Shown here one piece after another: positions 8,219-26,374 of a DNA stretch of 55,973 bases (position 1 is its first letter; each line of letters opens with the position of its first letter). This stretch comes from an uncultured archaeon (GTDB taxonomy: Archaea > Altiarchaeota > Altiarchaeia > JAFGQM01). Both the position numbers and the translations under genes were made by a program. Location: contig CAZINR010000002.1 of NCBI GenBank assembly GCA_964540655.1, positions 1,736-57,708 of the forward strand, written 5' to 3'. The notes below the pieces were generated by a model that did no database searches, had not been told where the DNA came from, and saw nothing but the letters and a program-made list of their open reading frames with translations.

Positions 8219-8841
8219 AGGAGACAAAAGAAAGCATTGAGCACCTGGAGCGTGTAGCTGATTGTTTGAGAAAAAATGGGTTCGATGCAAAAGTTTTTAT
8301 CGATCCTAATGGCATGGCCGATTATTTTCTGGATAAGATAGGCGCACATGATACTGTGGGTCTGGGCGGTTCGGTAACTATTGCAGAAACTGGCATAATC
8401 GAGCGGCTGGAGCTCAGGGGCAACATTATCTACAACCCATATGTCCAGCGCACAAGAAAGGAAGAGATGGACACAAGACGGAAGTGTCTACTGTCAGACT
8501 GGTTCATAACTGGGTCAAATGCAGTGACCGAGAATGGCCAGTTAGTCAATGTAGATGGCTTAGGCAGTAGGGTTTCAGCGATAGCATTCGGGCCGAAAAA
8601 TGTTCTGATAGTCGTTGGGAAGAACAAGATAGTGCCTGATGTTGAAGGGGGCTTCCAAAGGATAAAGGATCTGTCAGCACCGAAAAATGCGAAAAGGCGC
8701 GGCAATAAAACACCATGCGTAGACGGTAGATGCCCAGGATATGTCCCCGGGGAATGCATATGCAACATCCAGTCAGTTATTAATGGAGATGCTGCAGGCA
8801 GGATACATATCGCGCTAATATATCAAGAAATGGGCTATTAA
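8215..8841 (+). CDS. LUD-domain (LutC/YkgG-like) protein
   Basis: GTG start overlapping the upstream stop. TGSNAVTENGQLVNVDG and a C-terminal Cys cluster resemble the lactate-utilisation LUD family as I remember it. Confidence 0.5.
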   Translation: MKETKESIEHLERVADCLRKNGFDAKVFIDPNGMADYFLDKIGAHDTVGLGGSVTIAETGIIERLELRGNIIYNPYVQRTRKEEMDTRRKCLLSDWFITGSNAVTENGQLVNVDGLGSRVSAIAFGPKNVLIVVGKNKIVPDVEGGFQRIKDLSAPKNAKRRGNKTPCVDGRCPGYVPGECICNIQSVINGDAAGRIHIALIYQEMGY

Positions 8842-8855
8842 CGGAGCGGTTAAAG

Positions 8856-9959: not shown

Positions 9960-9960
9960 A

Positions 9961-10980: not shown

Positions 10981-11368
10981 GGGCTTCGGAGACTTGCAAG
11001 ATATCACAAAAGAAGTAGAAAAGATTGCGAACCTATCGAGCGTATCAAGCGGCATCATAACCCTATTCATCAGGGGCTCAACAACAGCCCTTGTGATTTA
11101 TAAAAATGATGCGGGTTCCATCCAAGATTTGATGGAAGCGCTTGGGGATCTCGCCCCGGCTGACAAAATATACAAGCACGAACAGACTTCGGGCGACAGC
11201 AATGGCGCGTCGCATATAAAGTCGGGGTTATTGGGGCCCTGCCTCACAATACCCTTTGTGGAAAACGAACTTTGTATCAGCAAAACACAAACAATTTTTG
11301 CCGTAGATTTTGATCCAAAGGAATCAAATCGAAGTATAATTGCGTGTGTATCAAAGGCGGAAGTCTAG
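10958..11368 (+). CDS. YjbQ/UPF0047 family protein (secondary thiamine-phosphate synthase-like)
   Basis: ATG at 10958. Family-typical GIITLFIRGSTTAL...NGASHIKSGLLGP. Confidence 0.7.
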   Translation: MEITFRSKGFGDLQDITKEVEKIANLSSVSSGIITLFIRGSTTALVIYKNDAGSIQDLMEALGDLAPADKIYKHEQTSGDSNGASHIKSGLLGPCLTIPFVENELCISKTQTIFAVDFDPKESNRSIIACVSKAEV

Positions 11369-11435
11369 ATGTAAAGACAGCTTGGATGCATCATTATCTT
11401 ACGGATGAGCAAAGCGGTTTATCATGGTCTCCGAG

Positions 11436-11561
11436 ATGAAGACGAAGATCTTCATAGTCCGTCACGGCAAATCCGAGGGTAACCTGAAGAGATGCTTCCA
11501 GGGCAGGGATGATATGCCTCATATACCCAGCAATTTGCATATTCTCTCAATTGCCACATAG
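11436..11561 (+). pseudogene. N-terminal remnant of a histidine phosphatase (PGAM-like) gene
   Basis: Own translation MKTKIFIVRHGKSEGNLKRCFQGRDDMP carries the RHG catalytic motif. It then runs into the 3' end of the convergent gene and stops after 41 codons. The full-length paralogue at 22058-22645 starts MRAILVRHGKTERSE. Confidence 0.55.
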
Positions 11562-12193
11562 CGGGTGCCCAGGAAATACTGCAGCTGTTTCCTTGCCAAA
11601 TCCATCCCGCCTATGAGTTCATCGAGCAGCTGCCCAGTGCCGATCAGTTCGGCGTATAACTTAATGTCGGGCATCTGCTCGCCGATAGAACTGTAATAAT
11701 TCGCAACCTTTCGGGCAGAATCCCCATCAACTGGAAGAATCAGTCTTAGATCCTTTTCATGTCTGAATGGATTGCGCATTCCGGGAATAAATCTCTCGGG
11801 TATCCCAGCTTCCTTTAATGCCGCGTCCCTATAGCCCATCTGGACAGAGTGTATGCGCGTCTTGTTAGCTGCATAGAAACGGATCACTTCGCCTTTGATA
11901 CTTTCAGGTATCTCCGTCTCGGGTTTTCCGAGCCACGAGCTTATAAGGTCCTCTGCGACTTTCCCATCTTTTTCGCCAAACAAGCGCTCGTATACGCCTA
12001 TGTTGATGATGTCCAGCTTTTTTGGTGTGGGCGTGCTATTTGCCATGATTTTGTCGACGTCAATTCCTGCGCTGTCAAAAATCAAACCCTCCGGAAGGCG
12101 CATCTTGGATGCAGTCCACCTGAATACTGCCTGAAAGGTCGGGCTGCGCTGGATGTTGCCGGAATCCACGCACCTGATTATGCATTTCTCCAT
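11519..12193 (-). CDS. hypothetical protein with a low-molecular-weight phosphatase-like N-terminus
   Basis: CVDSGNIQRSP resembles the LMW-PTP P-loop CxGNxCRS, but the C-to-R spacing is longer. The functional call is weak. Confidence 0.4.
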   Translation of the reverse strand: MEKCIIRCVDSGNIQRSPTFQAVFRWTASKMRLPEGLIFDSAGIDVDKIMANSTPTPKKLDIINIGVYERLFGEKDGKVAEDLISSWLGKPETEIPESIKGEVIRFYAANKTRIHSVQMGYRDAALKEAGIPERFIPGMRNPFRHEKDLRLILPVDGDSARKVANYYSSIGEQMPDIKLYAELIGTGQLLDELIGGMDLARKQLQYFLGTRYVAIERICKLLGI

Positions 12194-12295
12194 TGCATTC
12201 TAGTTAGAGTTCAGAAAAAGAAAAGCCGGCTTTTGATTAACCTCTTTTGACCGGGATGGCGCCCTTTGACCTCAAAGCACGAAGCCTGCTGCCAT

Positions 12296-12536
12296 CTACA
12301 AAGCCGCCAAAGCTAAGGAAGCAAGTGAAGGTCCAACCAATGTAACTGGTTTGAACCGAGGATAATGTCCCGCCTCCCGGAATCTAGGCGCTTCGCGCCT
12401 GTTTTCAGTTTTCTGTCCTGGGTCTTCCTTGGGTTTCCAGCACGAAGGTCCCGACGGGACCTTGTGCGCAGGTTTGTCTTCGGCAAACCTCGCGTTCTCG
12501 GTTTTCGAACTGGTCATTTTGAACACTGTTTTAGCA
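12296..12536 (+). repeat. junction repeat JY3
   Basis: Core at 12368-12381. Hairpin aggcgc-ttc-gcgcct at 12386-12400. Double-module at 12441-12494. Terminal box ggtcattttgaacac. The left flank lacks the GAAGAC arm. Confidence 0.8.
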
Positions 12537-12863
12537 TTAATAACCAAACCGCCTTTCGTAGTTCTTGTGGTCAAGCCACTCTAAGATGATGGAAATAATC
12601 TTCACTTCATCATCCGCCACAGAGTACATCAGCCTCCACCCGTTGGGCAGGTCGTATTTCCAGAGGTTGTCAATCCCATACTTCTTATAATCCTTTGAGA
12701 TTAGCCTTTTCGGCACATGGATTCCTGCTGAATGATCTCTCTTAAGATCCTCAATAGCCCTACTGATATATTCATGGAGGCGCTTGTCCTCATACTTTCC
12801 CCCTTTCAGATTTTCGTATGCTTCCTTAAGCTTTTCATCAACAAAATAGACCTCAGTTTTCAT
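12537..12863 (-). CDS. RelE/ParE-superfamily toxin-like protein
   Basis: 108 aa with C-terminal WRLMYSVADDEVKIISIILEWLDHKNYERRFGY, typical of a RelE-fold toxin. 4-nt overlap with the upstream partner. Confidence 0.55.
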   Translation of the reverse strand: MKTEVYFVDEKLKEAYENLKGGKYEDKRLHEYISRAIEDLKRDHSAGIHVPKRLISKDYKKYGIDNLWKYDLPNGWRLMYSVADDEVKIISIILEWLDHKNYERRFGY

Positions 12864-13117
12864 GCCTTCAACCTCGGATTGCTCGTTATCCTCCTTACAA
12901 GTTCAGGGTTCCAGACCCAGATTATCTGTCCGTCCTTTATTATGATCTTTCCAGAGTCCTGCAGGTAATCAAGGATGACGTTGAACGTCTGGTACATAAC
13001 CTTCTTCGGCAGGGATTTCCAAAGCTGCTTCTTTGTAGGATAGTCCTCATGTTCTTGTATGGCTTTTTCCACCATCAACACCGTATCCAACCTCGGATAA
13101 TGTAAAACCGCTTGCAT
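12860..13117 (-). CDS. antitoxin candidate (winged-helix-like)
   Basis: 85 aa, translationally coupled upstream of the toxin-like gene. Confidence 0.45.
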   Translation of the reverse strand: MQAVLHYPRLDTVLMVEKAIQEHEDYPTKKQLWKSLPKKVMYQTFNVILDYLQDSGKIIIKDGQIIWVWNPELVRRITSNPRLKA

Positions 13118-13157
13118 TTTTCAGTTATATATGTTTATACAATTAAAGAATAAAAAG

Positions 13158-13490
13158 GTTTTCTGTTTTCTAACCGGTCGGCGGTCAGGAAGACTCAAGA
13201 CCGATAACTGAAGACTGAAAATAATCCCGCCTCCCGGAAGGTATGCCCTTCGGGCATGTTTTGGGTTTTCTGTCCTGCGTCTTCCTCAGGTTTCCAGTTC
13301 ACTGTTTTCTGTGAACTGGTCATCTGGGAAACCCCGGGTAGGTTAATGAAAGTACAAAGAAAAATTACGCGCTCCGCCCGAATGTCACAAAGTGACATTG
13401 GGCGCAACTTCGCTTCGCGAAGTTCGCGCGCTAAGGACATAAAGGTAGGTGTTACACTACGACATGGACCATATGTAGTGTAAAACGCTC
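13158..13490 (+). repeat. junction repeat JY4
   Basis: taaccggtcggcgg terminus and GAAGAC arm. Core at 13225-13238. Hairpin atgccc-ttc-gggcat at 13243-13257. Hairpin at 13294-13319. Box gtcatctgggaaacc, then A-box acaaagaaaaa. Module at 13378-13429. TTACACTAC hairpin at 13452-13482. Confidence 0.85.
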
Positions 13491-13556
13491 ATTCTGTCTA
13501 ATAAATAGGCACTACAAAATTTAAAAGGTTTTTATTTCTGTAGCGCCTAAGTATAC

Positions 13557-14489
13557 ATGTCTTATTTAAGAGAAAAGAGGTCTGGAAAGAAAACTGGAAT
13601 TTACCTCACACAGAGTATACGTCTCAACGGTAAAATCAGGAATATTAGTGTTCTTTTGGGGTACAAACCAATAAGCGACATAGATAAATTAAAAAAACAA
13701 AAAGAGCCGATACTGAAAAAGAAGATAGAGCGGCTTCTATCTTCCGAAAGAGAGGATTACATGCTTTTGTCCGAGCAGGAAAGGCAAACCCTAAAGAATC
13801 TGGCTGAAGCTTATCAAAAAGCCCTCAAAAAATTCGACCCCGTCACCAAACAGAAATATCTTGACTGGTTCCTGACGCAGTTCACTTACGATACCAATGC
13901 GATAGAAGGCTCAAGCGTCCCTCTGGAAGAAGTCGGCCTGATATTATTCGACAAGGTAGTGCCTGCAGACAGGAATTTGAGGGAGGTCTACGAGGTCCAG
14001 AATCATAAGAAGGCATACGATTTCATAAACAAATATGTGGGCGATCTCAACTTTAAATTCATTATGGATGTCCATAGGCGCTTGATGTCAGAGATTATCT
14101 CAGATGCGGGAAAGACGCGTAAGGTTCGCGTGTTTGTAAGGGGATCTGACTTAAAGCCGCCCAAACCGGAAGACGTCTCAAAACATCTGGAAAATCTGGT
14201 CAAATGGTACAAGTCAAACAAATCTTTGCACCCTGTCTTGTTGGCAGCCCATATCCACTCGGAATTCGAGAGGATCCATCCGTTCAGGGACGGAAACGGC
14301 AGGACCGGCAGGCTCCTTCTTAACTTCATATTAATAAAGAACGACTATCCGCCGATAAACATACTGAATGAGAAGAGGGGCGCGTATTATTCGGCCCTTA
14401 GGGCTTGGGACAAAGGCGAAAAAAGACCTTTTGTCGAGCTTGTAATCTCATACATAAAAGACAGTGTCGGTTTTGTCACTAATCCCTAA
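13557..14489 (+). CDS. Fic/DOC family protein (AMPylase-type) with an internal inhibitory helix motif
   Basis: HPFRDGNGRTGRLL matches the Fic motif HxFx(D/E)GNGRxxR. TNAIEG matches the (S/T)xxxE(G/N) auto-inhibition motif. Confidence 0.9.
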   Translation: MSYLREKRSGKKTGIYLTQSIRLNGKIRNISVLLGYKPISDIDKLKKQKEPILKKKIERLLSSEREDYMLLSEQERQTLKNLAEAYQKALKKFDPVTKQKYLDWFLTQFTYDTNAIEGSSVPLEEVGLILFDKVVPADRNLREVYEVQNHKKAYDFINKYVGDLNFKFIMDVHRRLMSEIISDAGKTRKVRVFVRGSDLKPPKPEDVSKHLENLVKWYKSNKSLHPVLLAAHIHSEFERIHPFRDGNGRTGRLLLNFILIKNDYPPINILNEKRGAYYSALRAWDKGEKRPFVELVISYIKDSVGFVTNP

Positions 14490-14855
14490 CCTGTCGGCGG
14501 TCAGGAGGACTCAAGACCGATAACTGAAGACTGAAAATAATCCCGCCTCCCGGAATCCAGGCGCTGCGCCCGAAGGTCCCACCGGACCTTGGGCGCAACT
14601 TCTCTTCGAGAAGTTCGCGCGCCTGTTCACGAGCTTCGACTTCGTCGAAGCTGTGCGCAGGTTCTCCTTGAGAACCTCGCGTTCGGTCTTCTGTTCTGGG
14701 TTTTCCTCAGGTTTGCAGTCCACGGTTTTCTGTGGACTGGTCATCTTGGAAACACCCGGACTTTAACGAAAATACAAAGAAAAACTTATGCGCCTCCGGC
14801 GCAAAGGACATGAATCAGTGTTACACTACAACACGGGCAAGTGTAGTGTAAAACG
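14490..14855 (+). repeat. junction repeat JY5
   Basis: Core at 14541-14554. Double-modules at 14571-14621 and 14628-14681, the latter identical to 1333-1386. Hairpin at 14716-14739. Box gtcatcttggaaacaccc. A-box. TTACACTAC hairpin at 14821-14851. Confidence 0.85.
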
Positions 14856-14956
14856 CTTTTTAATTCTTGAATCCATAATATTAACACCACCTCACGGTGC
14901 CGAACCGTGAGACCCTCCTGGGCAACTTCGGTTGCGTCCAGGGGGACTTTACTCTT

Positions 14957-15643
14957 ATGACCAACAAGATACGCGTCAATTTCTACATAGATGGCTTCAA
15001 CGTTTATCACAGATTAAAGGACTACACCGAAAAGGCTGGTATTTGCTACAACTGGCTCGATTACAAAAGCCTGCTCAGTTCTCTACTCAAAGAGGGCGAG
15101 GAACTGGGCGAGATCTATTTCTTCACGGCCATATCTCAAAGGCACGGCGCTGACTCGGTTGTCAGACACAACAAATACGTCACCGCCCTAGAAGCCACTG
15201 GCGTTAATGTAGTCAAGGGCTATTTTACCAAGAAATACCGCAAGTGTAAGGTCAGGAGTTGCACTTATAAGGGCTTTAAGGAGTATCCTGACGAAGAAGA
15301 AAAAGAGACTGATGTCAAGATTGCTGTCCAAATGCTGAAAGATGCGGTAAATGATAAATTTGACAGATGTTTCCTGATGTCGGGCGATAATGATTTCGGC
15401 CCCGTTCTATTAGCGATTAAGGAATTGCGTCCAGACAAACAGGTCGGTTTGATAACGCCTCCTTTTGAACCCGGTATAGTGGACCTGATTAAGATGAGTG
15501 GGTTGAAAAAGGCATGTAGCGAGTGCAAAGGCCCGAGAATAAAAATGACGTTTGATAGACTTAAGGGGCATTCTTTGCCAAAGGAGGTAACAATTCCTGG
15601 AAAGCCGCCTGTCAAGATGCCAAAGGGTTATCGTACTTTTTAA
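14957..15643 (+). CDS. NYN-domain (LabA-like) putative RNase
   Basis: ATG at 14957. The N-terminus RVNFYIDGFNVYH and the later SGDNDF are the acidic motifs of NYN/LabA-like PIN-fold proteins. Confidence 0.65.
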   Translation: MTNKIRVNFYIDGFNVYHRLKDYTEKAGICYNWLDYKSLLSSLLKEGEELGEIYFFTAISQRHGADSVVRHNKYVTALEATGVNVVKGYFTKKYRKCKVRSCTYKGFKEYPDEEEKETDVKIAVQMLKDAVNDKFDRCFLMSGDNDFGPVLLAIKELRPDKQVGLITPPFEPGIVDLIKMSGLKKACSECKGPRIKMTFDRLKGHSLPKEVTIPGKPPVKMPKGYRTF

Positions 15644-15950
15644 CCGGTCGGCGGTCAGGAGGACCCAAGACTGAAGACCGCAGACCCTTTTCGCCCAAAG
15701 GCGAAAAGTAAAATCCCGCCTCCCGGAATCCAGGCGCGAAGCGCCTGTTCTCAGTTTTCTGTTTTGGGTCACTAGGTTCATCTGCGATGAACCTGTGCGC
15801 AACTGCCTTGCGGGCAGTTCGCGTTTCCCCAGGTTCCCAGTTCACGAGATTCGCCTTTAGCGAATCTGTGCACAGGTTCTCGGAGAGAACCTCGTGCTCT
15901 GCCGGAACCATCTCGGAAACACCTAGAGCGTAAGGAAAGCACAAAGAAAA
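15641..15950 (+). repeat. junction repeat JY6
   Basis: The taaccggtcggcgg terminus contains the NYN stop codon. Hairpin cttttcgcc/ggcgaaaag. Core at 15714-15727. Hairpin aggcgc-gaa-gcgcct at 15732-15746. Double-modules at 15770-15823 and 15843-15896. A-box. Confidence 0.85.
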
Positions 15951-15983
15951 ACATTTTTATCGACTAAGCCCCTAATATACACT

Positions 15984-16241
15984 ATGGATACACTGAAAGT
16001 CAACATATCCTTTCCGGTAGAGATGTACAAAAACGCCAAACTATTGGTGGACAATGGGTTTTATGGCTCTTTTTCCGAGATGGTTCGTAGTGGGATCAGG
16101 AATGAGATAGATATGCAGAGCCAGATAAATCCCGAATTCGTTGAGTCTATAAAAGTCGCTGAAGCTAGCGGATATAAAGACTACAAAACTGGGGAGGACA
16201 TGATTAGAGATCTCCACAAGGCCGCCAAGGAGAAGCGATGA
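15984..16241 (+). CDS. ribbon-helix-helix (CopG-like) antitoxin
   Basis: MDTLKVNISFPVEMYKNAKLLVDNGFYGSFSEMVRSGIRNE is a paralogue of the ORF at 25523-25789. ATGA overlap with the toxin. Confidence 0.6.
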   Translation: MDTLKVNISFPVEMYKNAKLLVDNGFYGSFSEMVRSGIRNEIDMQSQINPEFVESIKVAEASGYKDYKTGEDMIRDLHKAAKEKR

Positions 16242-16519
16242 TAGGCAACAAGGAATACAAGCCAAAACGCTCTAAATACTTCGAGAAGGATTATGTCTCG
16301 CTTGTGAGAAAGAACAGAGGTTTGCAAGAAAGACTTGACAAGAAGATACTGCAGATACTCGGGATGCCTGAGGTTTACAAGAACCTGAAGAAGCCCTTAC
16401 AGAGGTACAAAGCCGCGCATGTCGACCCATTTGTCATCACCTTCAGGATAGACGGGGATTATGTGAGGTTTGTCAGGGTTGCACACCATGATGTGGTTTA
16501 TGGGCTTCCACACGATTAG
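16238..16519 (+). CDS. RelE/ParE-superfamily toxin (HHD-type C-terminus)
   Basis: 93 aa; FVITFRIDGDYVRFVRVAHHDVVYG; coupled to the RHH gene. Confidence 0.6.
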   Translation: MIGNKEYKPKRSKYFEKDYVSLVRKNRGLQERLDKKILQILGMPEVYKNLKKPLQRYKAAHVDPFVITFRIDGDYVRFVRVAHHDVVYGLPHD

Positions 16520-16705
16520 TTCTCAGTTCTCTGTTTTTGCATTCCAACCGGTCGGCGGTCAGGAAGACTCAAGACTGAAGACTGAAAAAGGTCCCGCCTC
16601 CCGGAATGTAGGACCTTCGGCCCTGTCTTCGGTCTTTGTGTGGTTCACTGTCTACGGTCTTGTCTATAGGCCTGACCATTTTGAACACCGGACAGACTAA
16701 CGAAA
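16520..16705 (+). repeat. junction repeat JY7 (short form, no double-modules)
   Basis: ccaaccggtcggcgg plus GAAGAC arm. Core at 16592-16605. Hairpin aggacc-ttc-ggccct at 16610-16624. Terminal box gaccattttgaacacc. Confidence 0.8.
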
Positions 16706-16718
16706 CTATTGACATGAC

Positions 16719-16988
16719 TCATCTGATTCTGCGAAGATGTTTATATGCATTTCCTCTGTAGTCGACCATACGGATGACCAATAGGTCCTCCTTCTTATAA
16801 TAATCGACGAAGAGTCTGTAATCGCCGACGCGAATCTTAAGGAAGTCATAGCCTTTGACCGACTCAAGATATCTCTCCACGCTTTTGCCTATCTTCTGGT
16901 TGACTGTAGTGTAAATACGGTTGGCTATGTGTTTGTCGAGCTTCCTAAGATAATCTCTGGCTTTGGGGTCCCAGATTACGCGACTCAT
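16719..16988 (-). CDS. RelE/ParE toxin
   Basis: 89 aa; KIRVGDYRLFVDYYKKEDLLVIRMVDYRGNAYK is the classical RelE/ParE core. Confidence 0.7.
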   Translation of the reverse strand: MSRVIWDPKARDYLRKLDKHIANRIYTTVNQKIGKSVERYLESVKGYDFLKIRVGDYRLFVDYYKKEDLLVIRMVDYRGNAYKHLRRIR

Positions 16989-17179
16989 CCTCCGAACTCG
17001 GCCTTCATCTCTTCGTTTGAGATGAATTCGTCATTGGGCCTGTTCCTGGATTCCTCCACTCCTTTGACTATGTGGTCTGACAATTCACCCTCTTCGTCCA
17101 GGACTAATCTGATATGCGCAACCTCCTTCTTGAGGCCCATCAACTCTTTATGTATCTGATTCAGAGTCACGTTTTGCAT
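16985..17179 (-). CDS. antitoxin candidate
   Basis: 64 aa with a 4-nt overlap upstream of RelE. Confidence 0.5.
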   Translation of the reverse strand: MQNVTLNQIHKELMGLKKEVAHIRLVLDEEGELSDHIVKGVEESRNRPNDEFISNEEMKAEFGG

Positions 17180-17219
17180 TCTTATCGCATTAAGTTGATA
17201 GTCTAGGGATTAAAATTAA

Positions 17220-17500
17220 GGCTTTCCGTCTTGTCCGGTCGGCGGTCAAGTCGGTCTTCAGTCTTGGGTTTTCAGTCCTCGCTTGGATATCAAAAACCGA
17301 AGACTGTAAACTGTAGACCACTCCCCGAAGGGGAGTAAAATCCCGCCTCCCGGAGGGCCGCTTCGCCCGAAGGTCCCACCGGACCTTGGGCGCAACTTCT
17401 CTTCGAGAAGTTAGCGCGGCTGTCTACGGTCTTCTGTCTAGAGTCTTGGAAAGGTCTTCTGTCTACGGTCTGCGTAGACAGAGCCATTTTGAATCCTGCA
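17220..17500 (+). repeat. junction repeat JY8
   Basis: ccggtcggcgg. An inverted arm copy gtcggtcttcagtcttgggttttcagtcc. Hairpin ctcccc-gaa-ggggag. Core at 17341-17354. Module at 17368-17418, equal to 14571-14621 with 1 difference. Hairpin gtctacg/cgtagac. Box gccattttgaatcc. Confidence 0.8.
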
Positions 17501-17614
17501 CACTTACGATTCTGATATTATAAACCCATGACTAACAAAGGTGGCTGCAGATTGACAATATGGCATTTTTTAACAAGAAAGCCTTATATTAGCGCAAAAT
17601 TTGTAGGTGATAAA

Positions 17615-18313
17615 ATGACCGCGGCCACGAAGGAAATCGGAAAAATCAACAGGATAGGCATAGGCATACCTGAAGTGAACAAGCTGATTGAAGGCGGCAT
17701 ACCGGAATGCTCAATAGTCTTGCTCGCTGGTGAGCCTGGAACTGGAAAGACGATATTTGGCCTCCACTACATATCGGCCGGGGTAAAAGAAGGCGAAAAA
17801 TGTGCTTATGTGGCAATAGAACAAAATCCTGAGGAACTAAAGATACAAGCAAAGATACTCGGAAAGGATGTGGGCCCTGCGGAGTTTATCTCAGCCAAAG
17901 ACATTAAATATGATCTCGGTCTCGGCAAAAAGCCTGAAGACGTTATTGAGAAAATCAAACTCGTTCTTGAGAAGCTACAAAAGCTTAAAGTAAAGAGGGT
18001 AGTTATCGATTCTGTCAGCTCCCTTCAACTGGAGGATGGAATCAAGGCTAGGCTTGTTGTCAAAATGCTCGTGGACGGGTTGAAGAAACTGGGCGCAACC
18101 GCAGTGATTACAGGAGAATCCTTGAACGGAATTTACCCCGATGAGGTCACCCCTTTCCTCGTTGACGGGATGATTGTGCTTAAGAGGACTCACATTGGGA
18201 ACGAAACTCGCCGGGTTTTGGAGGTGATTAAGATGAGGCTTACGGACTGTAACGACTCGCCCCAACAATTTGAGATAACTAAAAAGGGAATTAAGATCAT
18301 TGCGGGCGAATAA
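17615..18313 (+). CDS. KaiC/RecA-superfamily ATPase (single-domain, archaeal KaiC-like)
   Basis: ATG at 17615. Walker A GEPGTGKT, Walker B-like VVIDSVS. The GIPE...VLLAGEPG context is typical of KaiC-like proteins. Confidence 0.7.
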   Translation: MTAATKEIGKINRIGIGIPEVNKLIEGGIPECSIVLLAGEPGTGKTIFGLHYISAGVKEGEKCAYVAIEQNPEELKIQAKILGKDVGPAEFISAKDIKYDLGLGKKPEDVIEKIKLVLEKLQKLKVKRVVIDSVSSLQLEDGIKARLVVKMLVDGLKKLGATAVITGESLNGIYPDEVTPFLVDGMIVLKRTHIGNETRRVLEVIKMRLTDCNDSPQQFEITKKGIKIIAGE

Positions 18314-18342
18314 GCTATACTCGCCCCTCCTTCATTCTTGAA

Positions 18343-19491
18343 ATGGCGGGGCCCGGCAAAGTATTTGAGGACATAAAAGCCAAGATTTACGACAAGTTCA
18401 TTCAATACTTTGTGATAACAAGGGGCGAAGTAATAGACCAACCCGGTTTTATACTCTGTAGATTTACCAGCGGTTCTTATGATATTTCCTTAAGGGAGTT
18501 CGTATTTCCCGAAAGCCTGTTCTGTGAACTTGAAAGCGCCATTGTAAAAAAATACGGGGACAAAGGCAAACAGGCCCTCTATTCTGCCGGAAAGAAATTT
18601 GGCTATAGGTATGCTAAAATTTCCGGCCTTGCCACAATTGCCAAATCTGGAGAGAAAAGATTTAAGAAAGAATTGTATGATGCAGTTAGGTATATGGAGA
18701 CAATTTATGCAGAGGGTATTCGGCATATTGTCGATTTGAAAAAAAGCCTTTTTGAGGCCAGTCTAAACCAATACGTAGTCTGTAGACTGAATGGTTTGGG
18801 GTATCTGCTTACCGAAGGCTCTGTGGCGGGCACTCTTGCGTATATGCTGGATAACAAAGATGTCGAAGGCACACAGATTCAATGCCAGGGGAGAGGGGAC
18901 AAGCTCTGTAAACTCATTTGTGCGCCCAAGCAGTACCTGAAAAACAAAAAAATAGCATTCCTTGAGGAAAATGACTACACAAAACTCGAGCTGAGCATTG
19001 ATTATCCAAGAATGAACGCAGTGCGCCAATGCAAATTTGCTACACAGTCATTCAAATCATTGGTGGATTCGGGATTCTATAAATATGAGCCCGGAGTCGC
19101 TAAATTTGGAAATGAAAGGTATCTTTTTTGCGAATCCAGCATATGGTATCTCATTGAAATTGAGCTGGGTAAATTAGGCGCGAATGGCCTAATATTCGAC
19201 GTTGCATTTGAAACTGGGAAAAAAGTGGGCAAGGAGCATAAGAGATACGGCGCAAAGGGGTTCCTTACGGACTATCTTTCCTCTTTGGGGTATGGAGATG
19301 TCCAGCAACTCAGCGAAAGGGAAGTGTCCATAGACTATTTCCCATGGACCCGCTACGTTGATGAAATACAGTTTGATTTACTTCGGGGGCTTGTTTCAGG
19401 ATTGCTAAGTGGGCTTACTGGAAAAGAGATTAAGCTAAGAAAAGTGGAGTATAGGGAAGATGACGGTTTCCTGAGCATAGCCATTAAATAA
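18343..19491 (+). CDS. hypothetical protein, possibly a tandem V4R-like (4-vinyl-reductase-type) ligand-binding protein
   Basis: 382 aa. CQGRGDKLCKLIC and the surrounding pattern resemble a V4R domain from memory only, so the functional call is weak. Confidence 0.4.
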   Translation: MAGPGKVFEDIKAKIYDKFIQYFVITRGEVIDQPGFILCRFTSGSYDISLREFVFPESLFCELESAIVKKYGDKGKQALYSAGKKFGYRYAKISGLATIAKSGEKRFKKELYDAVRYMETIYAEGIRHIVDLKKSLFEASLNQYVVCRLNGLGYLLTEGSVAGTLAYMLDNKDVEGTQIQCQGRGDKLCKLICAPKQYLKNKKIAFLEENDYTKLELSIDYPRMNAVRQCKFATQSFKSLVDSGFYKYEPGVAKFGNERYLFCESSIWYLIEIELGKLGANGLIFDVAFETGKKVGKEHKRYGAKGFLTDYLSSLGYGDVQQLSEREVSIDYFPWTRYVDEIQFDLLRGLVSGLLSGLTGKEIKLRKVEYREDDGFLSIAIK

Positions 19492-20329
19492 GAAAAACTG
19501 CCGCAAAAAGAAGAACGAAAATATCGACAAGAAGCATAACCTCTATATGTATTCTCCTATATTCCGCCCGGGTGCGTGCCTTCATGAAATTATCAAATAA
19601 GATTATATATGCCGGCAATACTAAGAACCCCAACATAAATTTGGAGGGAAGGGCTCCTGTAAGTATCATAATGAAAAGGGTGAGAAAAAAGACATAGTTA
19701 AGAATCACATAGGTCGTTGGTTTATAATACCTCTTGAGCTTGGGGAGTGTGGAACCGTTTTTATCGCCCTCAACATCTTCAAAATCCTTAATCTGCGAGG
19801 CGATGAAGATATAGGCGCCCATTATCGCTATTACATTCCACTGAAGCGCGCTTATCTGATGGGCGGACACTGCTAAGCCTATGATGGTGCCCAGGGCGCC
19901 CCAGGTAAGCCCCATAACAAGATAGTTTACAAGAAGAACCTCCTTCAGCCTTAGTTTTTCAAATGAATAAAGAACCCCGATTAGCAGGCTTACAAGAACT
20001 GCAGATTGTAAGAGTTGCGTTCCCAAAAAACTAAGAACAATAGAGGCCCCCGCCAAGAAGATGAAAAAAGGGAAAAGCTCTTTTTTTGAAAGATTTTTAT
20101 GGACAAATAAATTTTTCCTGTTTATGGTGTCAACTTCCCAGTCGGCTATCACATTTAATACAGTTATTGAGGAGACTAAAAACCACCATACTGCAAATGC
20201 AAAAGCAATGTTTATAATGGTCAGCGAACCGCCCATAGCCAAACCCAAAATAACAAAGACCGAAAGCAGGAAATTGTGGGGATAAGTCGCAATTAGCAAC
20301 GCCTTTAATTTGCTTATGGGCGAATCCAT
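19484..20329 (-). CDS. UbiA-family aromatic/isoprenoid prenyltransferase (integral membrane)
   Basis: 281 aa, multi-TM. NVIADWEVD and KDFEDVEGD are the two Asp-rich UbiA motifs. Confidence 0.7.
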   Translation of the reverse strand: MDSPISKLKALLIATYPHNFLLSVFVILGLAMGGSLTIINIAFAFAVWWFLVSSITVLNVIADWEVDTINRKNLFVHKNLSKKELFPFFIFLAGASIVLSFLGTQLLQSAVLVSLLIGVLYSFEKLRLKEVLLVNYLVMGLTWGALGTIIGLAVSAHQISALQWNVIAIMGAYIFIASQIKDFEDVEGDKNGSTLPKLKRYYKPTTYVILNYVFFLTLFIMILTGALPSKFMLGFLVLPAYIILFDNFMKARTRAEYRRIHIEVMLLVDIFVLLFAAVFLI

Positions 20330-20419
20330 TGTAGGGGCACTATTTAGTGGGTTGGGAACTAAAAACAGAATTTGATTAAGGTTGCTGGCAAAATATGGTG
20401 CCTTTGATTGGGGCTAGCT

Positions 20420-20505
20420 TTCTCTTGGCTTAGACTGAAAACCTCTCCGGGCAGACCCTGGACTGAAGACCGCAGACCCTTTTCGCCCAAAGGCGAAAAG
20501 TAAAA
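20420..20505 (+). repeat. junction half-repeat JY9 (left arm only) abutting the tRNA-Tyr 3' end
   Basis: agactgaaaacc...ggactgaagaccgcagac, then the hairpin, then gtaaaa. The same left arm occurs in JY2 and JY6. The core here is the functional tRNA 3' end. Confidence 0.8.
20479..20500 (-). terminator. T-tract plus 9-bp hairpin immediately downstream of tRNA-Tyr
   Basis: The minus strand reads ...GGGA TTTTAC CTTTTCGCC TTTG GGCGAAAAG. The same element is copied in JY2 (2354-2375) and JY6. Confidence 0.4.
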
Positions 20506-20616
20506 TCCCGCCTCCCGGATTTGAACCGGGGATCTTCCGGTAACCGTCTTTTCTCAGGCTCTCGCCCGAAAGCAAACTACAGCCAGACGCGTTAAACCAG
20601 ACTACGCTAAGGCGGG
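20506..20616 (-). tRNA. tRNA-Tyr(GTA) with a 35-nt intron at 37/38
   Basis: Manual fold of the minus strand: CCCGCCT-TA-GCGT-AGTCTGGTTTA-ACGC-G-TCTGG-CTGTAG[intron]A-CCGGA-AGATC-CCCGG-TTCAAAT-CCGGG-AGGCGGG-A. C1-G72 is the archaeal/eukaryal Tyr identity pair. No CCA is encoded. Confidence 0.85.
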
Positions 20617-24567: not shown

Positions 24568-24812
24568 CTAGCTGGAAAGCTCGACTGCGGCCGCCGGGGA
24601 AATTTTGAAAGGTTTTCGGTTTTGAGTTTTCGGGTTTGTCTAAGGGAAGCCCAGTTTACAGTTCTGGGTCCTGAGTTTCGCATTTAGCGAAACTGGGCGC
24701 GAAGGTATGTAGGACCTTGCGCGCAACTTGCTTTGTGGCAAGTTCGCGCACAGTTCGCTTCGCGAACTTCGTGTTCCTGTTACGCTCCAGCCACTTAAAG
24801 AAACTAAAAAGA
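24568..24812 (+). repeat. junction repeat JG1 (distal)
   Basis: Core at 24586-24598. Right arm ggttttcggttttgagttttcggg...cccagtttacagttctggg. Hairpin modules at about 24674-24772. A-box aaaaagaaaaac. No left GAAGAC arm. Confidence 0.8.
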
Positions 24813-24816
24813 AAAA

Positions 24817-25038
24817 CTAATCCAAAAGCTCCAAGAACTCCTCAACCTTTAACTCTGCCTGCTTGATAATACTCATTACAGTCTTAATGCTCAGTTCGCC
24901 TTTAGCAGGGATTGTAGCAGGAGGCTTGGTTGGGTGCCTCATTCTAACATGCGAACCTCTTTGTCTAACAAACTCATAACCGAGTTTACTTAGGGCTTTG
25001 ATTGCGTCTTTTCCAGAAATAACAGGTATCCGCCTCAT
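24817..25038 (-). CDS. hicA: HicA toxin
   Basis: 73 aa. GKDAIKALSKLGYEFVRQRGSHVRMRH is the HicA/YcfA signature. Confidence 0.85.
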   Translation of the reverse strand: MRRIPVISGKDAIKALSKLGYEFVRQRGSHVRMRHPTKPPATIPAKGELSIKTVMSIIKQAELKVEEFLELLD

Positions 25039-25256
25039 GCCGGCATTGCTAGTTTTTGTAGCTTAGGTGGCGTGGGAGCTTGAATCGGTATCCCTTCTTC
25101 TCTTAGGCCCTCTAAATGTAAGTCTAAAGCCTCCCTCATATTGGCTAGGGCTTCTTTCTCAGTCTTACCCTGCGTTACGCAAATGCCCGGCAAGCCTGGC
25201 ACTGTGGCGACATAATATCCGTCTTCGGATTTCTCTAAGAGGACTGTAAATTCCAT
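25035..25256 (-). CDS. hicB: HicB antitoxin (UPF0150-type)
   Basis: 73 aa. EDGYYVATVPGLPGICVTQGKTEKEALANMREAL is the typical HicB N-domain. 4-nt overlap with hicA. Confidence 0.85.
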   Translation of the reverse strand: MEFTVLLEKSEDGYYVATVPGLPGICVTQGKTEKEALANMREALDLHLEGLREEGIPIQAPTPPKLQKLAMPA

Positions 25257-25295
25257 TTTTGTGCAGTAATTAGAAGGTTGGACTAAAAGAATCTT

Positions 25296-25470
25296 TAACC
25301 GCCGGCCCCATTAACCAAAACTGAAAACCGCAGACTGAAGACTGCTTTCGAAGAAAGCTTGAGTGCGGCCGCCGGGGAAATTTTGAAAGGTTCTCGGTTT
25401 TGAGTTTTCGGTTTTGTCTAAGGGAAGCCCAGTTTACAGTTCTGGGTTTCCTGGCCCGTTCTGATTTTCT
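25296..25470 (+). repeat. junction repeat JG2
   Basis: Left arm aaaactgaaaaccgcagactgaagact plus hairpin gctttc-gaa-gaaagc. Core at 25364-25376. The right arm is nearly identical to that of JG1. Confidence 0.85.
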
Positions 25471-25522
25471 AGAGGCTTTCCAAAGAAAGGTTTTTATCCT
25501 TAATGTATCAAAATGATACACT

Positions 25523-25789
25523 ATGGAAAACGCAAGAGTGAATATTGTACTGCCTAAGAAGATGTATGCGTCCGTGAATAAGTTAGTGGACATGGGGTAT
25601 TACAAATCGTTTTCCGAGGCAGTCCGAACAGGTTTGAGGGATGAGGTTATGAAGTATCAGGTCCCCACGGCAGATCTTACAGAGTCCGAGTTGAAGGAAA
25701 TCAATGAAGGATTTGCAGATATAGACGCAGGTCGAACGAAGTCCGCCACCGAGCTAGCAAAGGAGCTTGGATATGACGTTCAGTGTTGA
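25523..25789 (+). CDS. ribbon-helix-helix (CopG-like) antitoxin
   Basis: MENARVNIVLPKKMYASVNKLVDMGYYKSFSEAVRTGLRDE is a paralogue of 15984-16241. Confidence 0.6.
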   Translation: MENARVNIVLPKKMYASVNKLVDMGYYKSFSEAVRTGLRDEVMKYQVPTADLTESELKEINEGFADIDAGRTKSATELAKELGYDVQC

Positions 25790-26027
25790 GTTCACCAACA
25801 AGGCGGAAAAGAACCTGAAGAAAATCCCTGAACCGTTTAGAAAGAAACTGTTTATAGCAGCCGTCGCTCTGAGTAAGAATCCTTATCCTCGAGGATTGGA
25901 GAAGTTGACCGATAGGGGGGATACCTATAGGATCCGAATTGGACAATACAGAATGGTTTGGTTCGTTAACAAGAAGGCAGACCTGATCCAGATAGTTAAT
26001 ATCGATAAGCGACCCAAAGTATATTAG
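25773..26027 (+). CDS. RelE/ParE toxin
   Basis: ATG at 25773. YRIRIGQYRMVWFVNKKADLIQIVNIDKRPKVY is the classical RelE/ParE core. Confidence 0.7.
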   Translation: MTFSVEFTNKAEKNLKKIPEPFRKKLFIAAVALSKNPYPRGLEKLTDRGDTYRIRIGQYRMVWFVNKKADLIQIVNIDKRPKVY

Positions 26028-26184
26028 GTCCGTCGGCCTCATTAAGAAGACCGGGAACCAAGACTAAAGACTGCTTTCGAAGAAAGCTTGAATGCGGCCG
26101 CCGGATGGCAAGGTGGACACGGCCTCCAGGCATATGACCTTGCCAGTAGCGGGCGCACCGGGGCTAAGCCGAGAGAAAGTAAGG
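26027..26184 (+). repeat. junction repeat JG3 plus an 80-bp gene-less unit
   Basis: ggtccgtcggcc terminus, left arm, and hairpin gctttc-gaa-gaaagc. Core at 26093-26105. Then a 9-bp-stem hairpin tggcaaggt...accttgcca before the true tRNA end. Confidence 0.8.
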
Positions 26185-26303
26185 TGCGGCCGCCGGGATT
26201 CGAACCCGGGTTCTGGGCTTTCTCCACGCTTTCTTTTCATCGACTTTTCTTTTGAAAAGATCGTGTGGAAGGCCCAAGTGATACCAGACTACACCACGGC
26301 CGC
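26185..26303 (-). tRNA. tRNA-Gly(TCC) with a 46-nt intron at 37/38
   Basis: Manual fold: GCGGCCG-TG-GTGT-AGTCTGGTA-TCAC-T-TGGGC-CTTCCA[intron]A-GCCCA-GAAC-CCGGG-TTCGAAT-CCCGG-CGGCCGC-A. Confidence 0.85.
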
Positions 26304-26374
26304 AAGCGGTCTTGAGTTTTCAGTCTTCCGTCCTCTGACGAAGGCGCTTAGTTAGAATATTCCGGAATAAAAGA

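What the first reader, a model, noticed from the sequence alone, without database searches (positions are those of the whole stretch)
24568..26335. The same junction grammar recurs at tRNA-Gly but with the core swapped to the tRNA-Gly 3' end
- Behind tRNA-Gly(TCC) the junctions JG1-JG3 carry tgcggccgccgg(g) at 24586, 25364 and 26093. This is again exactly the discriminator, acceptor 3' strand and T-stem 3' strand, the same structural window as at tRNA-Tyr.
- The flanking parts are homologous in style to the Tyr junctions. They have a left arm ...ctgaaaaccgcagactgaagact, a loop-GAA hairpin gctttc/gaaagc, right arms rich in GTTTTC/GGTTTT words, hairpin double-modules and an A-box.
- Cassettes here are hicAB and an RHH-RelE pair.
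- The last unit (26106-26184) is a gene-less 80 bp segment containing only a 9-bp hairpin.
- An inverted copy of the arm (aagcggtcttgagttttcagtcttcc, 26304-26330) lies on the 5' side of the tRNA gene, so the functional tRNA is itself bracketed by inverted arms.

Inference: the machinery recognises arms or structure. The short core is simply whatever tRNA end is targeted, giving modular target specificity.
Basis: partly seen in the sequence, partly recalled or inferred. Interest (0 to 1): 0.85.

Follow-up and report, generated by a model that had tools for sequence, protein, structure and literature searches.

The report
Recombinase-less gene cassette arrays behind archaeal tRNAs
Behind tRNA-Gly, and behind the other two tRNA genes in this archaeal window, small gene cassettes carrying no recombinase gene are stacked one after another, each bounded by a copy of the last 13-15 bases of that tRNA plus shared repeat-and-hairpin arms, which resembles an integron anchored on tRNA genes and matches nothing I found in the literature.

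Summary
**Observation:** confirmed. TGCGGCCGCCGG occurs four times, against 0 expected by chance. Three copies are displaced; the fourth is the true 3' end of an intron-bearing tRNA-Gly(TCC). Between them lie a hicAB cassette, an RHH-relE cassette and an 80-nt gene-less unit.

**Arms:** a profile built from the tRNA-Tyr arms alone, cores excluded, finds the Gly-locus arms (E = 3e-7, 2e-5, 0.018).

**Other assemblies:**
- The same hicBA cassette sits next to tRNA-Gly(GCC).
- The same RHH-relE cassette sits alone at tRNA-Gly(TCC) and also at tRNA-Gly(GCC).
- A homologue of a Tyr-array cassette (70% amino-acid identity) sits at tRNA-Arg(GCG).
- Phe, Leu and Ser tRNAs also carry cassettes or units.

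**Recombinase:** none was detected in the window or in the roughly 55 kb of L077, L087 and L089 around three related arrays.

**Best reading (0.55):** these are cis-mobilisable cassettes inserted by a site-specific recombinase encoded elsewhere. That enzyme binds the arms and exchanges strands inside the short tRNA-end core.

**Main rival (0.2):** casposase-like targeted transposition, in which the core is a target-site duplication.

partly supported. The arms are shared and the core follows the tRNA, but the machinery is unidentified, and the bracketing of the tRNA by inverted arms occurs only in this genome.

**Verdict:** a new variant of a known kind, of high interest.

The parts
24586..24598 (+). 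G1 core: the distal displaced copy of the tRNA-Gly 3' end (TGCGGCCGCCGGG) and the outer boundary of the array. The 11 nt to its left (GAAAGCTCGAC) resemble the cassette hairpin half.
   Evidence: family D13
24599..24816 (+). tRNA-distal non-coding arm of the hicAB cassette. It holds GTTTTCN-type heptads (24608-24676), three hairpin modules (about 24672-24780) and an A-rich box.
   Evidence: (D2, D9, D12, D13)
24817..25256 (-). hicA (24817-25038) and hicB (25035-25256), a toxin-antitoxin cargo.
   Evidence: Pfam HicA_toxin, HicB_lk_antitox. The same pair, 90% and 92% identical, lies next to tRNA-Gly(GCC) in L077.
25298..25363 (+). tRNA-proximal arm of the hicAB cassette. It holds the inverted partial core ACCGCCGGCCCCA (25298-25310), AAGACYN-type heptads (25317-25343) and the GAA-loop hairpin GCTTTC/GAAAGC (25344-25358).
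   Evidence: 10 of 13, p = 0.004; E = 2.3e-5
25364..25376 (+). G2 core, the junction between the two cassettes.
25377..25522 (+). tRNA-distal arm and promoter-like region of the RHH-relE cassette. Its first 71 nt, together with the G2 core and 11 nt to its left, form a 95-nt repeat 96% identical to the one at G1.
   Evidence: D13
25523..26027 (+). RHH antitoxin (25523-25789) and RelE/ParE toxin (25773-26027).
   Evidence: The same cassette lies at tRNA-Gly in L078, L079 and L080.
26029..26092 (+). tRNA-proximal arm of the RHH-relE cassette. It holds the inverted partial core TCCGTCGGCCTCA (26029-26041), heptads (26045-26072) and the GAA hairpin (26073-26087).
   Evidence: (11 of 13, p < 0.0005)
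26093..26104 (+). G3 core (TGCGGCCGCCGG, one G shorter than the tRNA copy).
26105..26184 (+). Gene-less 80-nt unit, a member of a conserved unit family. It has a 9-bp hairpin (26106-26114 with 26137-26145) followed by an acceptor-like inverted motif AGCGGGCGCA (26148-26157).
   Evidence: alignment with the units at tRNA-Arg, L078, L079 and L080; the stems covary. (tandem units at tRNA-Ser in L089).
26185..26303 (-). Functional tRNA-Gly(TCC) with an intron. Its 3' end is the fourth, tRNA-proximal core copy.
   Evidence: read
26304..26345 (-). Solo heptad arm abutting the tRNA 5' end. Relative to L078 and L080 it is an insertion between the promoter and the tRNA.
   Evidence: 19 of 20; E = 3.3e-7
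1298..20505 (+). Array of the same kind behind tRNA-Tyr. Cores TCCCGCCTCCCGGA lie at 2381 (1 mismatch), 12368, 13225, 14541, 15714, 16592 and 17341, with a degenerate copy at 1298. Cargo comprises toxin-antitoxin pairs, Fic, NYN, KaiC + V4R + UbiA and a 10-kb phosphonate cluster.
20506..20616 (-). tRNA-Tyr(GTA) with an intron, the head of the Tyr array.
52166..52400 (+). Two gene-less units behind an intron-bearing tRNA-Arg-like gene (about 52401-52533, - strand). The core GACGGACCCGCCGGGAT lies at 52307 and 52399, with a degenerate copy at 52166.
   Evidence: The tRNA was read by eye and is not called at the Rfam gathering score.

Best explanation
**What it is.** The tRNA-Gly locus is a tandem array of small mobile cassettes (hicAB, RHH-relE) plus one 80-nt gene-less unit. 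All were inserted one behind another into the 3' end of tRNA-Gly(TCC).

**What each insertion did.** It regenerated the tRNA end and pushed a displaced 12-15-nt copy (the core) outwards.

**What the cassettes carry.** They encode no recombinase. They carry the two halves of a recombination site of about 110-160 bp. On a circularised cassette this site would read: heptad arm, core, GAA-loop hairpin, inverted heptad arm, inverted partial copy of the core.

**How widespread the site is.** The same architecture, with a different core, bounds the cassettes at tRNA-Tyr and tRNA-Arg in the window. In related archaea it bounds cassettes at Gly(GCC), Arg(GCG) and Leu, and gene-less units of the same family lie behind Ser. 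The Fic cassette at tRNA-Phe has the core repeat and hairpin modules but no heptad arm.

**Inferred mechanism.**
- A site-specific recombinase encoded elsewhere in the genome or on a helper element, most likely tyrosine-type, binds the arms.
- It exchanges strands within the short core, which the cassette shares with the tRNA gene.
- The array therefore grows at the tRNA-proximal end, and cassettes behave like cis-mobilisable elements or integron cassettes with the tRNA gene acting as attI.
- The abundant toxin-antitoxin cargo would stabilise the array.

**Shown:** the anatomy, the arm homology, and the same cassettes in different arrays and at different tRNAs.

**Inferred:** the trans-acting enzyme, its class and the site of strand exchange.
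For: **Repeats and tRNA**
- Exact core repeats identical to the tRNA 3' end.
- The tRNA is intact at the head of each array.

**Foreign origin**
- Cassette GC is about 45%, host GC about 56%.

**Arms**
- Arms are shared between the Tyr and Gly loci with cores excluded.
- In 900 kb of unrelated loci the arm profile hits only one Altiarchaeota element.

**Mobility**
- hicBA, 90-92% identical, lies directly next to tRNA-Gly(GCC) in L077, but is distal in the window's Gly(TCC) array.
- RHH-relE lies alone at Gly(TCC) in L078/L079 and at Gly(GCC) in L080.
- The Tyr-array RHH-relE has a 70%-identical counterpart at tRNA-Arg(GCG) in L087, with the cargo inverted relative to the arms.
- The syntenic tRNA-Tyr locus of L089 holds entirely different cassettes.

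**Age polarity**
- Distal cores are the degenerate ones (1298, 2381, 52166; L077 junctions).

**Orientation**
- In every heptad-armed junction examined, the hairpin/heptad/inverted-core arm follows the sense core.

**Evidence that the core is element-borne (att-like)**
- The L080 cores read variant, variant, canonical. This is the outcome expected if incoming units carry the variant and crossover lies near the discriminator end.
- In L077 near-identical arms flank cores that differ from each other.
- Identity blocks vary from 12 to about 24 nt between element families.

**Selected structure**
- The hairpin beside the Tyr core is 94% paired, with 6 compensatory cells.
- The unit hairpins covary.
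Against: - No integrase, resolvase, Cas1 or DDE gene was found in the 56-kb window or in the gene tables of L077, L087 and L089. The enzyme is therefore hypothetical.
- No excised circle and no helper element with the same site was found; five IMG/VR scans were empty or irrelevant.
- A 7-bp repeat period is unusual for the arm-type sites of known integrases.
- Homologous cassettes at different tRNAs require repeated core replacement under an att model. A target-site-duplication model explains this for free.
- The 10-kb phosphonate cassette lacks one arm at 12368.
Confidence: 0.55

Rival explanations
1. **Targeted transposition.** The cassettes are non-autonomous transposons. Their inverted heptad arms are terminal inverted repeats and the core is a target-site duplication. 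A trans-acting casposase-like (Cas1-family) or other staggered-cutting enzyme recognises the conserved T-arm of any tRNA gene and cuts 13-15 bp apart. Arrays then grow like CRISPR arrays, with the tRNA body acting as leader.
For: - Casposons duplicate 14-15 bp at tRNA 3' ends. They need the adjacent T-loop segment as a leader-like signal and form tandem arrays sharing one duplication (PMC5137440; PMC4779613).
- Cores here are 13-15 nt. In the gene-less units they span the same structural positions (discriminator to T-loop nucleotide 2) at Gly, Arg and Ser.
- The arms are inverted repeats.
- The model explains without further assumption why homologous cassettes carry different cores at different tRNAs and why cargo can be flipped.
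- Many tRNA identities are hit.
Against: - No Cas1, PolB or transposase was found.
- Identity blocks vary from 12 to about 24 nt, and at G1-G3 they extend beyond the tRNA.
- In L080 two distal cores share a variant that the tRNA lacks.
- In L077 cores differ beside near-identical arms. Fresh duplications of one target should be identical.
- Insertion orientation is uniform.
- I saw no terminal inverted repeats in the gene-less units (by inspection only).
Confidence: 0.2
2. **Structure- or guide-directed recombination.** The site works as a folded single strand, like an integron attC, or through a guide. The core pairs with the imperfect inverted copy of itself that lies beyond the heptad arm. 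This makes a bulged stem that imitates the acceptor/T-arm helix of the target tRNA. The enzyme reads this structure, and the inverted copy specifies which tRNA is targeted.
For: - Inverted partial cores lie 30-55 nt from the core. Gly scores 10-11 of 13 (p <= 0.004) and Tyr 9-10 of 14.
- The junction's own core is the best match, ties included, in 23 of 32 junctions across 7 core types.
- The tRNA-sense strand folds into a 12-13-bp stem with two single mismatches at fixed positions (z about -3).
- The gene-less units hold an acceptor-like inverted motif that changes with the tRNA (Gly, Arg, Ser).
- Hairpins have C-GAA-G or C-TTC-G triloops. From my own knowledge, this is a motif of unusually stable DNA mini-hairpins.
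Against: - Margins over foreign cores are only 1-3 nt, and all cores are GC-rich and alike.
- The stem is not predicted in L080 or L078.
- A similar CCGTCGRC motif occurs in L087 arms whose core is unrelated.
- No IntI-like gene is present, and the junction core does not fit GTTRRRY.
Confidence: 0.15
3. **No dedicated machinery today.** The arrays are relics of old integrations. They are now shuffled only by homologous recombination between the long conserved junction repeats, after DNA uptake or between arrays.
For: - Junction repeats of 75-125 nt at 78-96% identity offer ample homology.
- No recombinase is found in cis.
- Synteny breaks at arrays: the SLT gene adjoins a Gly-type core in the window and a Leu-type core in L089.
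Against: - Seven perfect 14-nt Tyr cores (the tRNA's own copy and six displaced copies) and selected, covarying hairpins argue for an active site.
- Cassette boundaries fall exactly at cores in different genomes.
- Different tRNAs carry the same architecture, which homologous exchange alone cannot establish.
Confidence: 0.1

Closest known systems
Integrons, including sedentary chromosomal integrons, CALINs and the archaeal integrons of Ghaly et al. 2022 (PMC9668308)
   Same: - Arrays of about 0.7-1.3-kb cassettes, rich in toxin-antitoxin pairs.
- Each cassette ends in an imperfect palindromic site.
- Growth is apparently at one privileged end.
- The cassettes themselves carry no recombinase.
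   Different: - The anchor is a tRNA gene 3' end, not an attI beside intI.
- No IntI was found.
- The junction core is the tRNA end rather than GTTRRRY.
- Several anchors (Tyr, Gly, Arg) lie within 56 kb.
- The cassettes bring their own promoter-like boxes and long heptad arms.
- One cassette is a 10-kb biosynthetic cluster.
Cis-mobilisable elements (CIMEs) and tandem accretion at tRNA genes, as with ICESt1/ICESt3 of Streptococcus thermophilus (from my own knowledge)
   Same: - Elements bounded by att repeats and lacking integrase.
- They sit in tandem at a tRNA 3' end.
- They are presumed to be moved in trans.
   Different: - Known CIMEs are decayed ICEs with a recognisable parent. No parent element is seen here.
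- The cassettes here are tiny, numerous and spread over many tRNA identities with one shared arm design.
Tycheposons of Prochlorococcus (bioRxiv 10.1101/2020.12.28.424599)
   Same: - tRNA-seeded variable islands built by successive integrations that push older elements outwards.
- Partial tRNA repeats mark the boundaries.
- The cargo is adaptive or defensive.
   Different: - Tycheposons carry their own tyrosine or serine recombinase.
- They use partial-tRNA attachment sites (such sites are typically about 40 nt).
- They occur in bacteria, not archaea.
- No heptad arms are described.
Casposons (PMC5137440, PMC4779613)
   Same: - Archaeal elements inserted at tRNA 3' ends.
- 14-15-bp direct repeats and inverted terminal repeats.
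- Tandem copies share one repeat.
- A leader-like role for the T-loop region.
   Different: - No Cas1 and no PolB.
- The elements are 0.08-10 kb rather than the large, multi-gene size of casposons.
- Repeat length varies and variant cores occur.
- Orientation is uniform.
Lambda-type attP of heterobivalent tyrosine integrases (from my own knowledge)
   Same: - A short core of identity with attB.
- The core is flanked by arms bearing repeated binding motifs in opposite orientation on the two sides.
   Different: - The motifs here are tandem heptads with a 7-bp period.
- The arms also contain conserved stem-loops.

Membership tests
Integron | An intI tyrosine recombinase gene adjacent to the array, with attI and the Pc promoter | tested here: not met
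   No Phage_integrase or any other recombinase hit among about 50 ORFs of the window, nor in the gene tables of L077, L087 and L089. The array head is a tRNA gene.
Integron | attC sites with R''/R' boxes (RYYYAAC ... GTTRRRY) that fold as bulged hairpins | tested here: inconclusive
   - The junction cores are TGCGGCCGCCGGG and TCCCGCCTCCCGGA, not GTTRRRY.
- A bulged long-range stem between the core and its inverted copy is predicted for the two window Gly junctions (z about -3), but not for L078 or L080.
- The attC covariance model is not available in these tools.
Integron | An array of short cassettes, each with one or a few genes | tested here: met
   Cassettes of 778 and 729 bp at Gly, and 750-1320 bp for most Tyr cassettes.
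tRNA-targeting integrative element (tyrosine-integrase type) | The element is flanked by direct repeats of a tRNA 3' segment and the tRNA is regenerated intact | tested here: met
tRNA-targeting integrative element (tyrosine-integrase type) | The element encodes its own integrase | tested here: not met
Cis-mobilisable element (CIME) | att-flanked, with no recombination or transfer genes | tested here: met
   The cargo is toxin-antitoxin pairs, Fic, NYN, KaiC and metabolic genes only.
Cis-mobilisable element (CIME) | A related autonomous element with the same att site supplies the integrase | tested here: inconclusive
   None was found in IMG/VR with arm or core patterns or in the fetched loci. 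The rest of the host genome was not available.
Casposon or a non-autonomous derivative | A Cas1 casposase (and PolB) in the element or genome | tested here: not met
   No Cas1 or PolB hit in the window or related loci. The genome-wide status is unknown.
Casposon or a non-autonomous derivative | Terminal inverted repeats abutting a fixed-length target-site duplication (14-15 bp) | tested here: inconclusive
   - The arms are inverted heptad repeats, and the cores are 13-15 nt in many junctions.
- However, identity blocks range from 12 to about 24 nt, variant cores are shared between non-adjacent junctions, and I saw no terminal inverted repeats in the gene-less units by inspection.
MITE | A short non-coding element with terminal inverted repeats and a short target duplication, scattered over the genome | tested here: not met
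   - I saw no inverted termini in the gene-less units, and they occur only behind tRNAs.
- Heptad palindromes do occur alone at 17253-17320 and inside a gene in L041, so a separate MITE-like relative may exist.

The most novel reading that the evidence does not exclude
This archaeal lineage has a tRNA-anchored counterpart of the integron.
- Any tRNA gene can serve as the docking site.
- Cassettes without a recombinase gene carry a programmable site in which an inverted copy of the target's acceptor/T-stem sequence pairs with the core, imitating the tRNA minihelix.
- A single unknown trans-acting enzyme reads the heptad arms and this structure. Retargeting a cassette to another tRNA therefore needs only a change of about 13 nt.
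- The 70-80-nt gene-less units would be the minimal mobile form of the site.
Probability: 0.25. Interest if true: 0.92.

Novelty: new variant of a known kind. Interest (0 to 1): 0.78.

Why it matters
- **A gene-capture platform in Archaea.** If cassettes are moved in trans into the 3' ends of many different tRNA genes, this lineage has a platform that works like an integron but is built differently. It has several anchors per genome, no integrase gene found next to any array, and cargo ranging from toxin-antitoxin and defence genes to a 10-kb phosphonate pathway.
- **A new explanation for variable regions.** It would explain hypervariable regions in uncultivated archaeal genomes that current island finders miss, because those tools look for integrases or long partial tRNAs.
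- **A possible retargetable site.** The shared arms with exchangeable 13-15-nt cores would offer a naturally retargetable recombination site, once the enzyme is found.
- **A testable link.** The resemblance to casposon and CRISPR-leader logic makes the relation between tRNA-targeted integration and array growth directly testable.

Tried and rejected
**Searches that led nowhere**
- ARAGORN finds no tRNA in the window, because all three tRNAs have introns. Rfam was used instead.
- The single genome-collection scan, with the FNR-like neighbour of tRNA-Gly, gave no close relative (54% identity at best) and no arrays. It did turn up an Altiarchaeota heptad palindrome.
- Five IMG/VR scans with arm, hairpin-module and core patterns gave nothing related. 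The heptad hits are bacterial phage contigs with their own MITE-like palindromes, and the hairpin-module hits lie in coding sequence.
- The metagenome scan with an RHH alignment returned 6 loci, of which only L087 was relevant.
- A recombinase was sought with Pfam and NCBIfam among about 50 ORFs of the window and 11 further ORFs of L087 and L077, and by reading the precomputed gene tables. None was found.
- The basic 318-aa protein beside tRNA-Tyr has only two homologues and no domain hit. It led to syntenic loci but not to an enzyme.
- Five literature searches and one review found no description of such arrays.

**Ideas rejected**
- Retroelement primer-binding site: the cores lack the CCA complement and no reverse transcriptase is present.
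- Split or trans-spliced tRNA genes: the fragments are 13-15 nt and do not sit at intron positions.
- UUCG-type RNA tetraloops: the loops are 3-nt TTC or GAA, found after correcting the register.
- A known RNA family in the gene-less unit: only insignificant tmRNA and mascRNA-like hits.
- Assembly artefact: the arrays recur in independent NCBI, JGI, ENA and Logan assemblies.

**Downgraded**
- Covariation between the core and its inverted copy is rated suggestive only.


Full report

Yes.
- TGCGGCCGCCGG occurs at 24586, 25364, 26093 and 26185. No match appeared in 100 dinucleotide-preserving shuffles.
- The last copy is the 3' end of a tRNA at 26185-26303 on the minus strand (Rfam, 52.1 bits).
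  - I read it as tRNA-Gly(TCC) with a ~45-nt intron at the canonical archaeal position.
  - ARAGORN finds no tRNA at all in the window, because all three tRNAs carry introns.
- Between the copies lie:
  - hicA/hicB (24817-25256, minus strand);
  - an RHH-RelE/ParE pair (25523-26027). Pfam assignments come from an identical Logan contig;
  - an 80-nt gene-less unit (26105-26184) with a 9-bp stem.
- The cassette DNA is about 45% GC and the surrounding genome about 56%.
- The host is an archaeon: two PurP paralogues, a SepCysS-like gene and tRNA introns. Its lineage was not identified.

**2. Are the arms shared with the tRNA-Tyr junctions?**

Yes, and beyond chance.
- The arms are tandem heptads, AAGACYN on one side of the core and the inverse on the other.
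- A triple-heptad scan gives 13 matches of at least 18 of 20 positions, against 0.04 in shuffles. All 13 lie at junctions or at the solo arm 5' of tRNA-Gly.
- An nhmmer profile was built from Tyr left arms only, cores excluded. Searched against the 35 kb outside the Tyr island, it finds 26294-26357 (E = 3.3e-7), 25317-25356 (E = 2.3e-5) and 26031-26084 (E = 0.018).
- In 900 kb of unrelated loci the same profile hits only one element, in an Altiarchaeota MAG.

**3. Anatomy**

Read on the tRNA-sense strand, every heptad-armed junction has the same order:
1. the core (the tRNA 3' end);
2. a few nucleotides;
3. a GC-rich hairpin with a 3-nt GAA or TTC loop;
4. three to five GTCTTNN-type heptads;
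5. an imperfect inverted copy of part of the core;
6. the cargo, in either orientation;
7. hairpin modules;
8. AAGACNN-type heptads;
9. the next core.

Evidence that the hairpins are under selection:
- The hairpin beside the Tyr core is 94% paired, with compensatory changes in 6 cells. Only 3 of 500 shuffles reach this.
- The stems of the gene-less units covary.

**4. The wider picture in the window**

All three tRNA genes head such arrays.
- tRNA-Tyr (20506-20616) is followed by eight cores back to about 1298. The cargo comprises toxin-antitoxin pairs, Fic, NYN, KaiC + V4R + UbiA and a 10-kb phosphonate cluster (PEP mutase, two B12 radical-SAM enzymes, HMGL-like enzymes, a TPP decarboxylase).
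- An intron-bearing tRNA-Arg-like gene (about 52401-52533) is followed by two gene-less units.
- The outermost cores are the degenerate ones (1298, 2381, 52166). This fits growth at the tRNA-proximal end.

**5. Related genomes: evidence for mobility**

| Locus | tRNA at the head | What follows it |
|---|---|---|
| L077 (JGI, 166-kb contig) | Gly(GCC), no intron | hicBA 90-92% identical to the window's, with the same ctcaa-hairpin-heptad arm; then at least five other toxin-antitoxin cassettes |
| L077 | Phe | One Fic cassette bounded by a repeat of the tRNA-Phe end |
| L078/L079 | Gly(TCC), no intron | The MatE and methyltransferase neighbours are syntenic with the window. Only the RHH-relE cassette plus one gene-less unit |
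| L080 | Gly(GCC) | The same RHH-relE cassette plus two gene-less units |
| L087 | Arg(GCG) | At least four cassettes. The first is 70% and 68% identical to the RHH-relE pair of the window's Tyr array, with cargo inverted relative to the arms |
| L089 | Tyr | Syntenic with the window, but the cassettes are different (DpnI, AAA_14 ATPase, a toxin-antitoxin pair) |
| L089 | Leu(TAG) | A mazEF cassette |
| L089 | Ser(GCT) | A run of tandem ~70-nt gene-less units |

- The same cassettes therefore occur in different arrays and at different tRNAs.
- Counting isoacceptors, nine different tRNAs are used.
- Every complete tRNA locus examined was occupied.

**6. No recombinase**

- Pfam and NCBIfam scans of about 50 window ORFs found no integrase, resolvase, Cas1, HUH or DDE enzyme.
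- The gene tables of L077, L087 and L089 show none near any array.
- IMG/VR holds no element with these arms or junctions.

**7. Mechanism**

*Best-supported reading.* The cassettes are cis-mobilisable. They are inserted by a recombinase encoded elsewhere, which binds the arms and exchanges strands within the short core.

*Evidence that the core travels with the element (att-like) rather than being a fresh duplication of the target:*
- In L080 the two distal cores share a G-to-C variant that the tRNA lacks. This is the outcome expected if incoming units carry the variant and crossover lies near the discriminator end.
- In L077, junctions with near-identical arms have cores that differ from each other.
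- Identity blocks vary from 12 nt (7 inside the tRNA plus 5 beyond it, L077) to about 24 nt (G1-G3).
- Orientation is uniform.

*Main rival: casposase-like targeted transposition.*
- Casposons duplicate 14-15 bp at tRNA 3' ends, need the adjacent T-loop segment and form tandem arrays sharing one duplication.
- This model explains core swapping and cargo flips without further assumptions.
- Against it stand the points listed above and the absence of Cas1.

*A third reading: the core pairs with its inverted copy, like an attC or a guide.*
- For: Gly junctions match at 10-11 of 13 positions (p <= 0.004). The junction's own core is the best match, ties included, in 23 of 32 junctions. Stems are predicted with z about -3.
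- Against: the margins are small, and the stem is not predicted in L078 or L080.

**8.

- The inverted arm 5' of tRNA-Gly is real. It is a 38-nt insertion between the promoter and the tRNA.
- It is absent from the orthologous loci L078 and L080 and from the Tyr and Arg tRNAs. Bracketing is therefore not part of the general design.
- "The machinery recognises arms" remains an inference.

**9. Comparison and novelty**

- The system works like an integron or like CIME accretion, and it recalls tycheposons and casposons.
- It fails a defining feature of each. There is no intI and no GTTRRRY core, no integrase of its own, and no Cas1 or PolB.
- Five full-text searches and the 2021 review of archaeal tyrosine recombinases (zero mentions of "cassette") gave no description of tRNA-anchored arrays of cassettes that lack a recombinase gene and have heptad arms.
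- I rate it a new variant of a known kind (site-specific insertion at tRNA genes, cassette arrays).
- Interest is high because the enzyme, the role of the heptads and the 80-nt units are all unexplained.

Noticed in passing
window 2453-12367: A complete-looking phosphonate biosynthesis cluster sits as one 10-kb cassette between Tyr cores T1 and T2. It encodes PEP mutase, two B12-binding radical-SAM enzymes, two HMGL-like enzymes, a LUD-domain protein, a TPP decarboxylase, UPF0047 and an LMW-phosphatase-like ORF. It lacks the heptad arm on its 12368 side.
   Followed up: partly
L041:10411-10625 (Altiarchaeota MAG JAZDMS010000003): A ~215-bp palindrome of the same heptads, (GTCYTCA)n followed by (GAAGACN)n, lies inside an FNR-like ORF. 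By eye the reading frame appears to stay open, recalling Rickettsia palindromic elements. The heptad repeat family therefore also exists outside tRNA junctions.
   Followed up: partly
window 28491-28531 and 28820-28854: Two arm-like heptad stretches in facing orientation lie inside the methyltransferase gene (nhmmer E = 7e-4 and 4e-4). Neither is conserved at the DNA level in the L078 orthologue, which also lacks 6 nt at the first stretch.
   Followed up: partly
window 34708-34736: A four-heptad stretch lies inside a HAD-hydrolase gene (score 17 of 20, nhmmer E = 0.003). It may be chance or a remnant.
   Followed up: no
window 17253-17320: An internal heptad palindrome (an inverted arm followed by a direct arm, with no core between them) lies just left of Tyr core T7. 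It has the same form as the L041 element.
   Followed up: no
window 26375-27037: The FNR-like oxidoreductase between tRNA-Gly and MatE is absent from the syntenic L078 locus. Its best homologues, 54% identity at most, are in Planctomycetia, Bathyarchaeia and Omnitrophota MAGs. It adjoins the solo arm, so it may itself be an acquired gene.
   Followed up: partly
window 14826-14860; L089:1650-1740, 2870-2935, 3060-3095; L093:158-190: An 11-mer, GTTACACTACA, recurs as direct and inverted copies about 22 nt apart in cassette non-coding regions of three genomes. It may be an operator or a second kind of arm site.
   Followed up: no
L089:9500-9970: tRNA-Ser(GCT) is followed by many tandem ~70-nt gene-less units, each bounded by GCGCTGAGGCCGGGAT. 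The assembly has a gap inside the run, so the copy number is unknown.
   Followed up: partly
window 24523-24600 versus L089:8100-8245: The conserved upstream region of the SLT transglycosylase gene adjoins a Gly-type distal core in the window but a Leu-type distal core in L089. The arrays therefore sit at synteny breakpoints.
   Followed up: no
L060 (IMG/VR 3300031760_004730), 534-640, 1445-1545, 4571-4660: A GC-rich bacterial phage contig carries three copies of a ~100-bp intergenic element with AAGACTG-type heptad inverted repeats around a conserved centre. It is probably an unrelated MITE-like family with convergent ends.
   Followed up: partly
window 20697-21653 and L080:149-646: Basic proteins with no domain hit and a weakly similar motif resembling a winged-helix recognition helix (pairwise E = 0.002) lie beside arrays in two genomes. 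The window protein has only two homologues in 5.8 billion sequences.
   Followed up: partly
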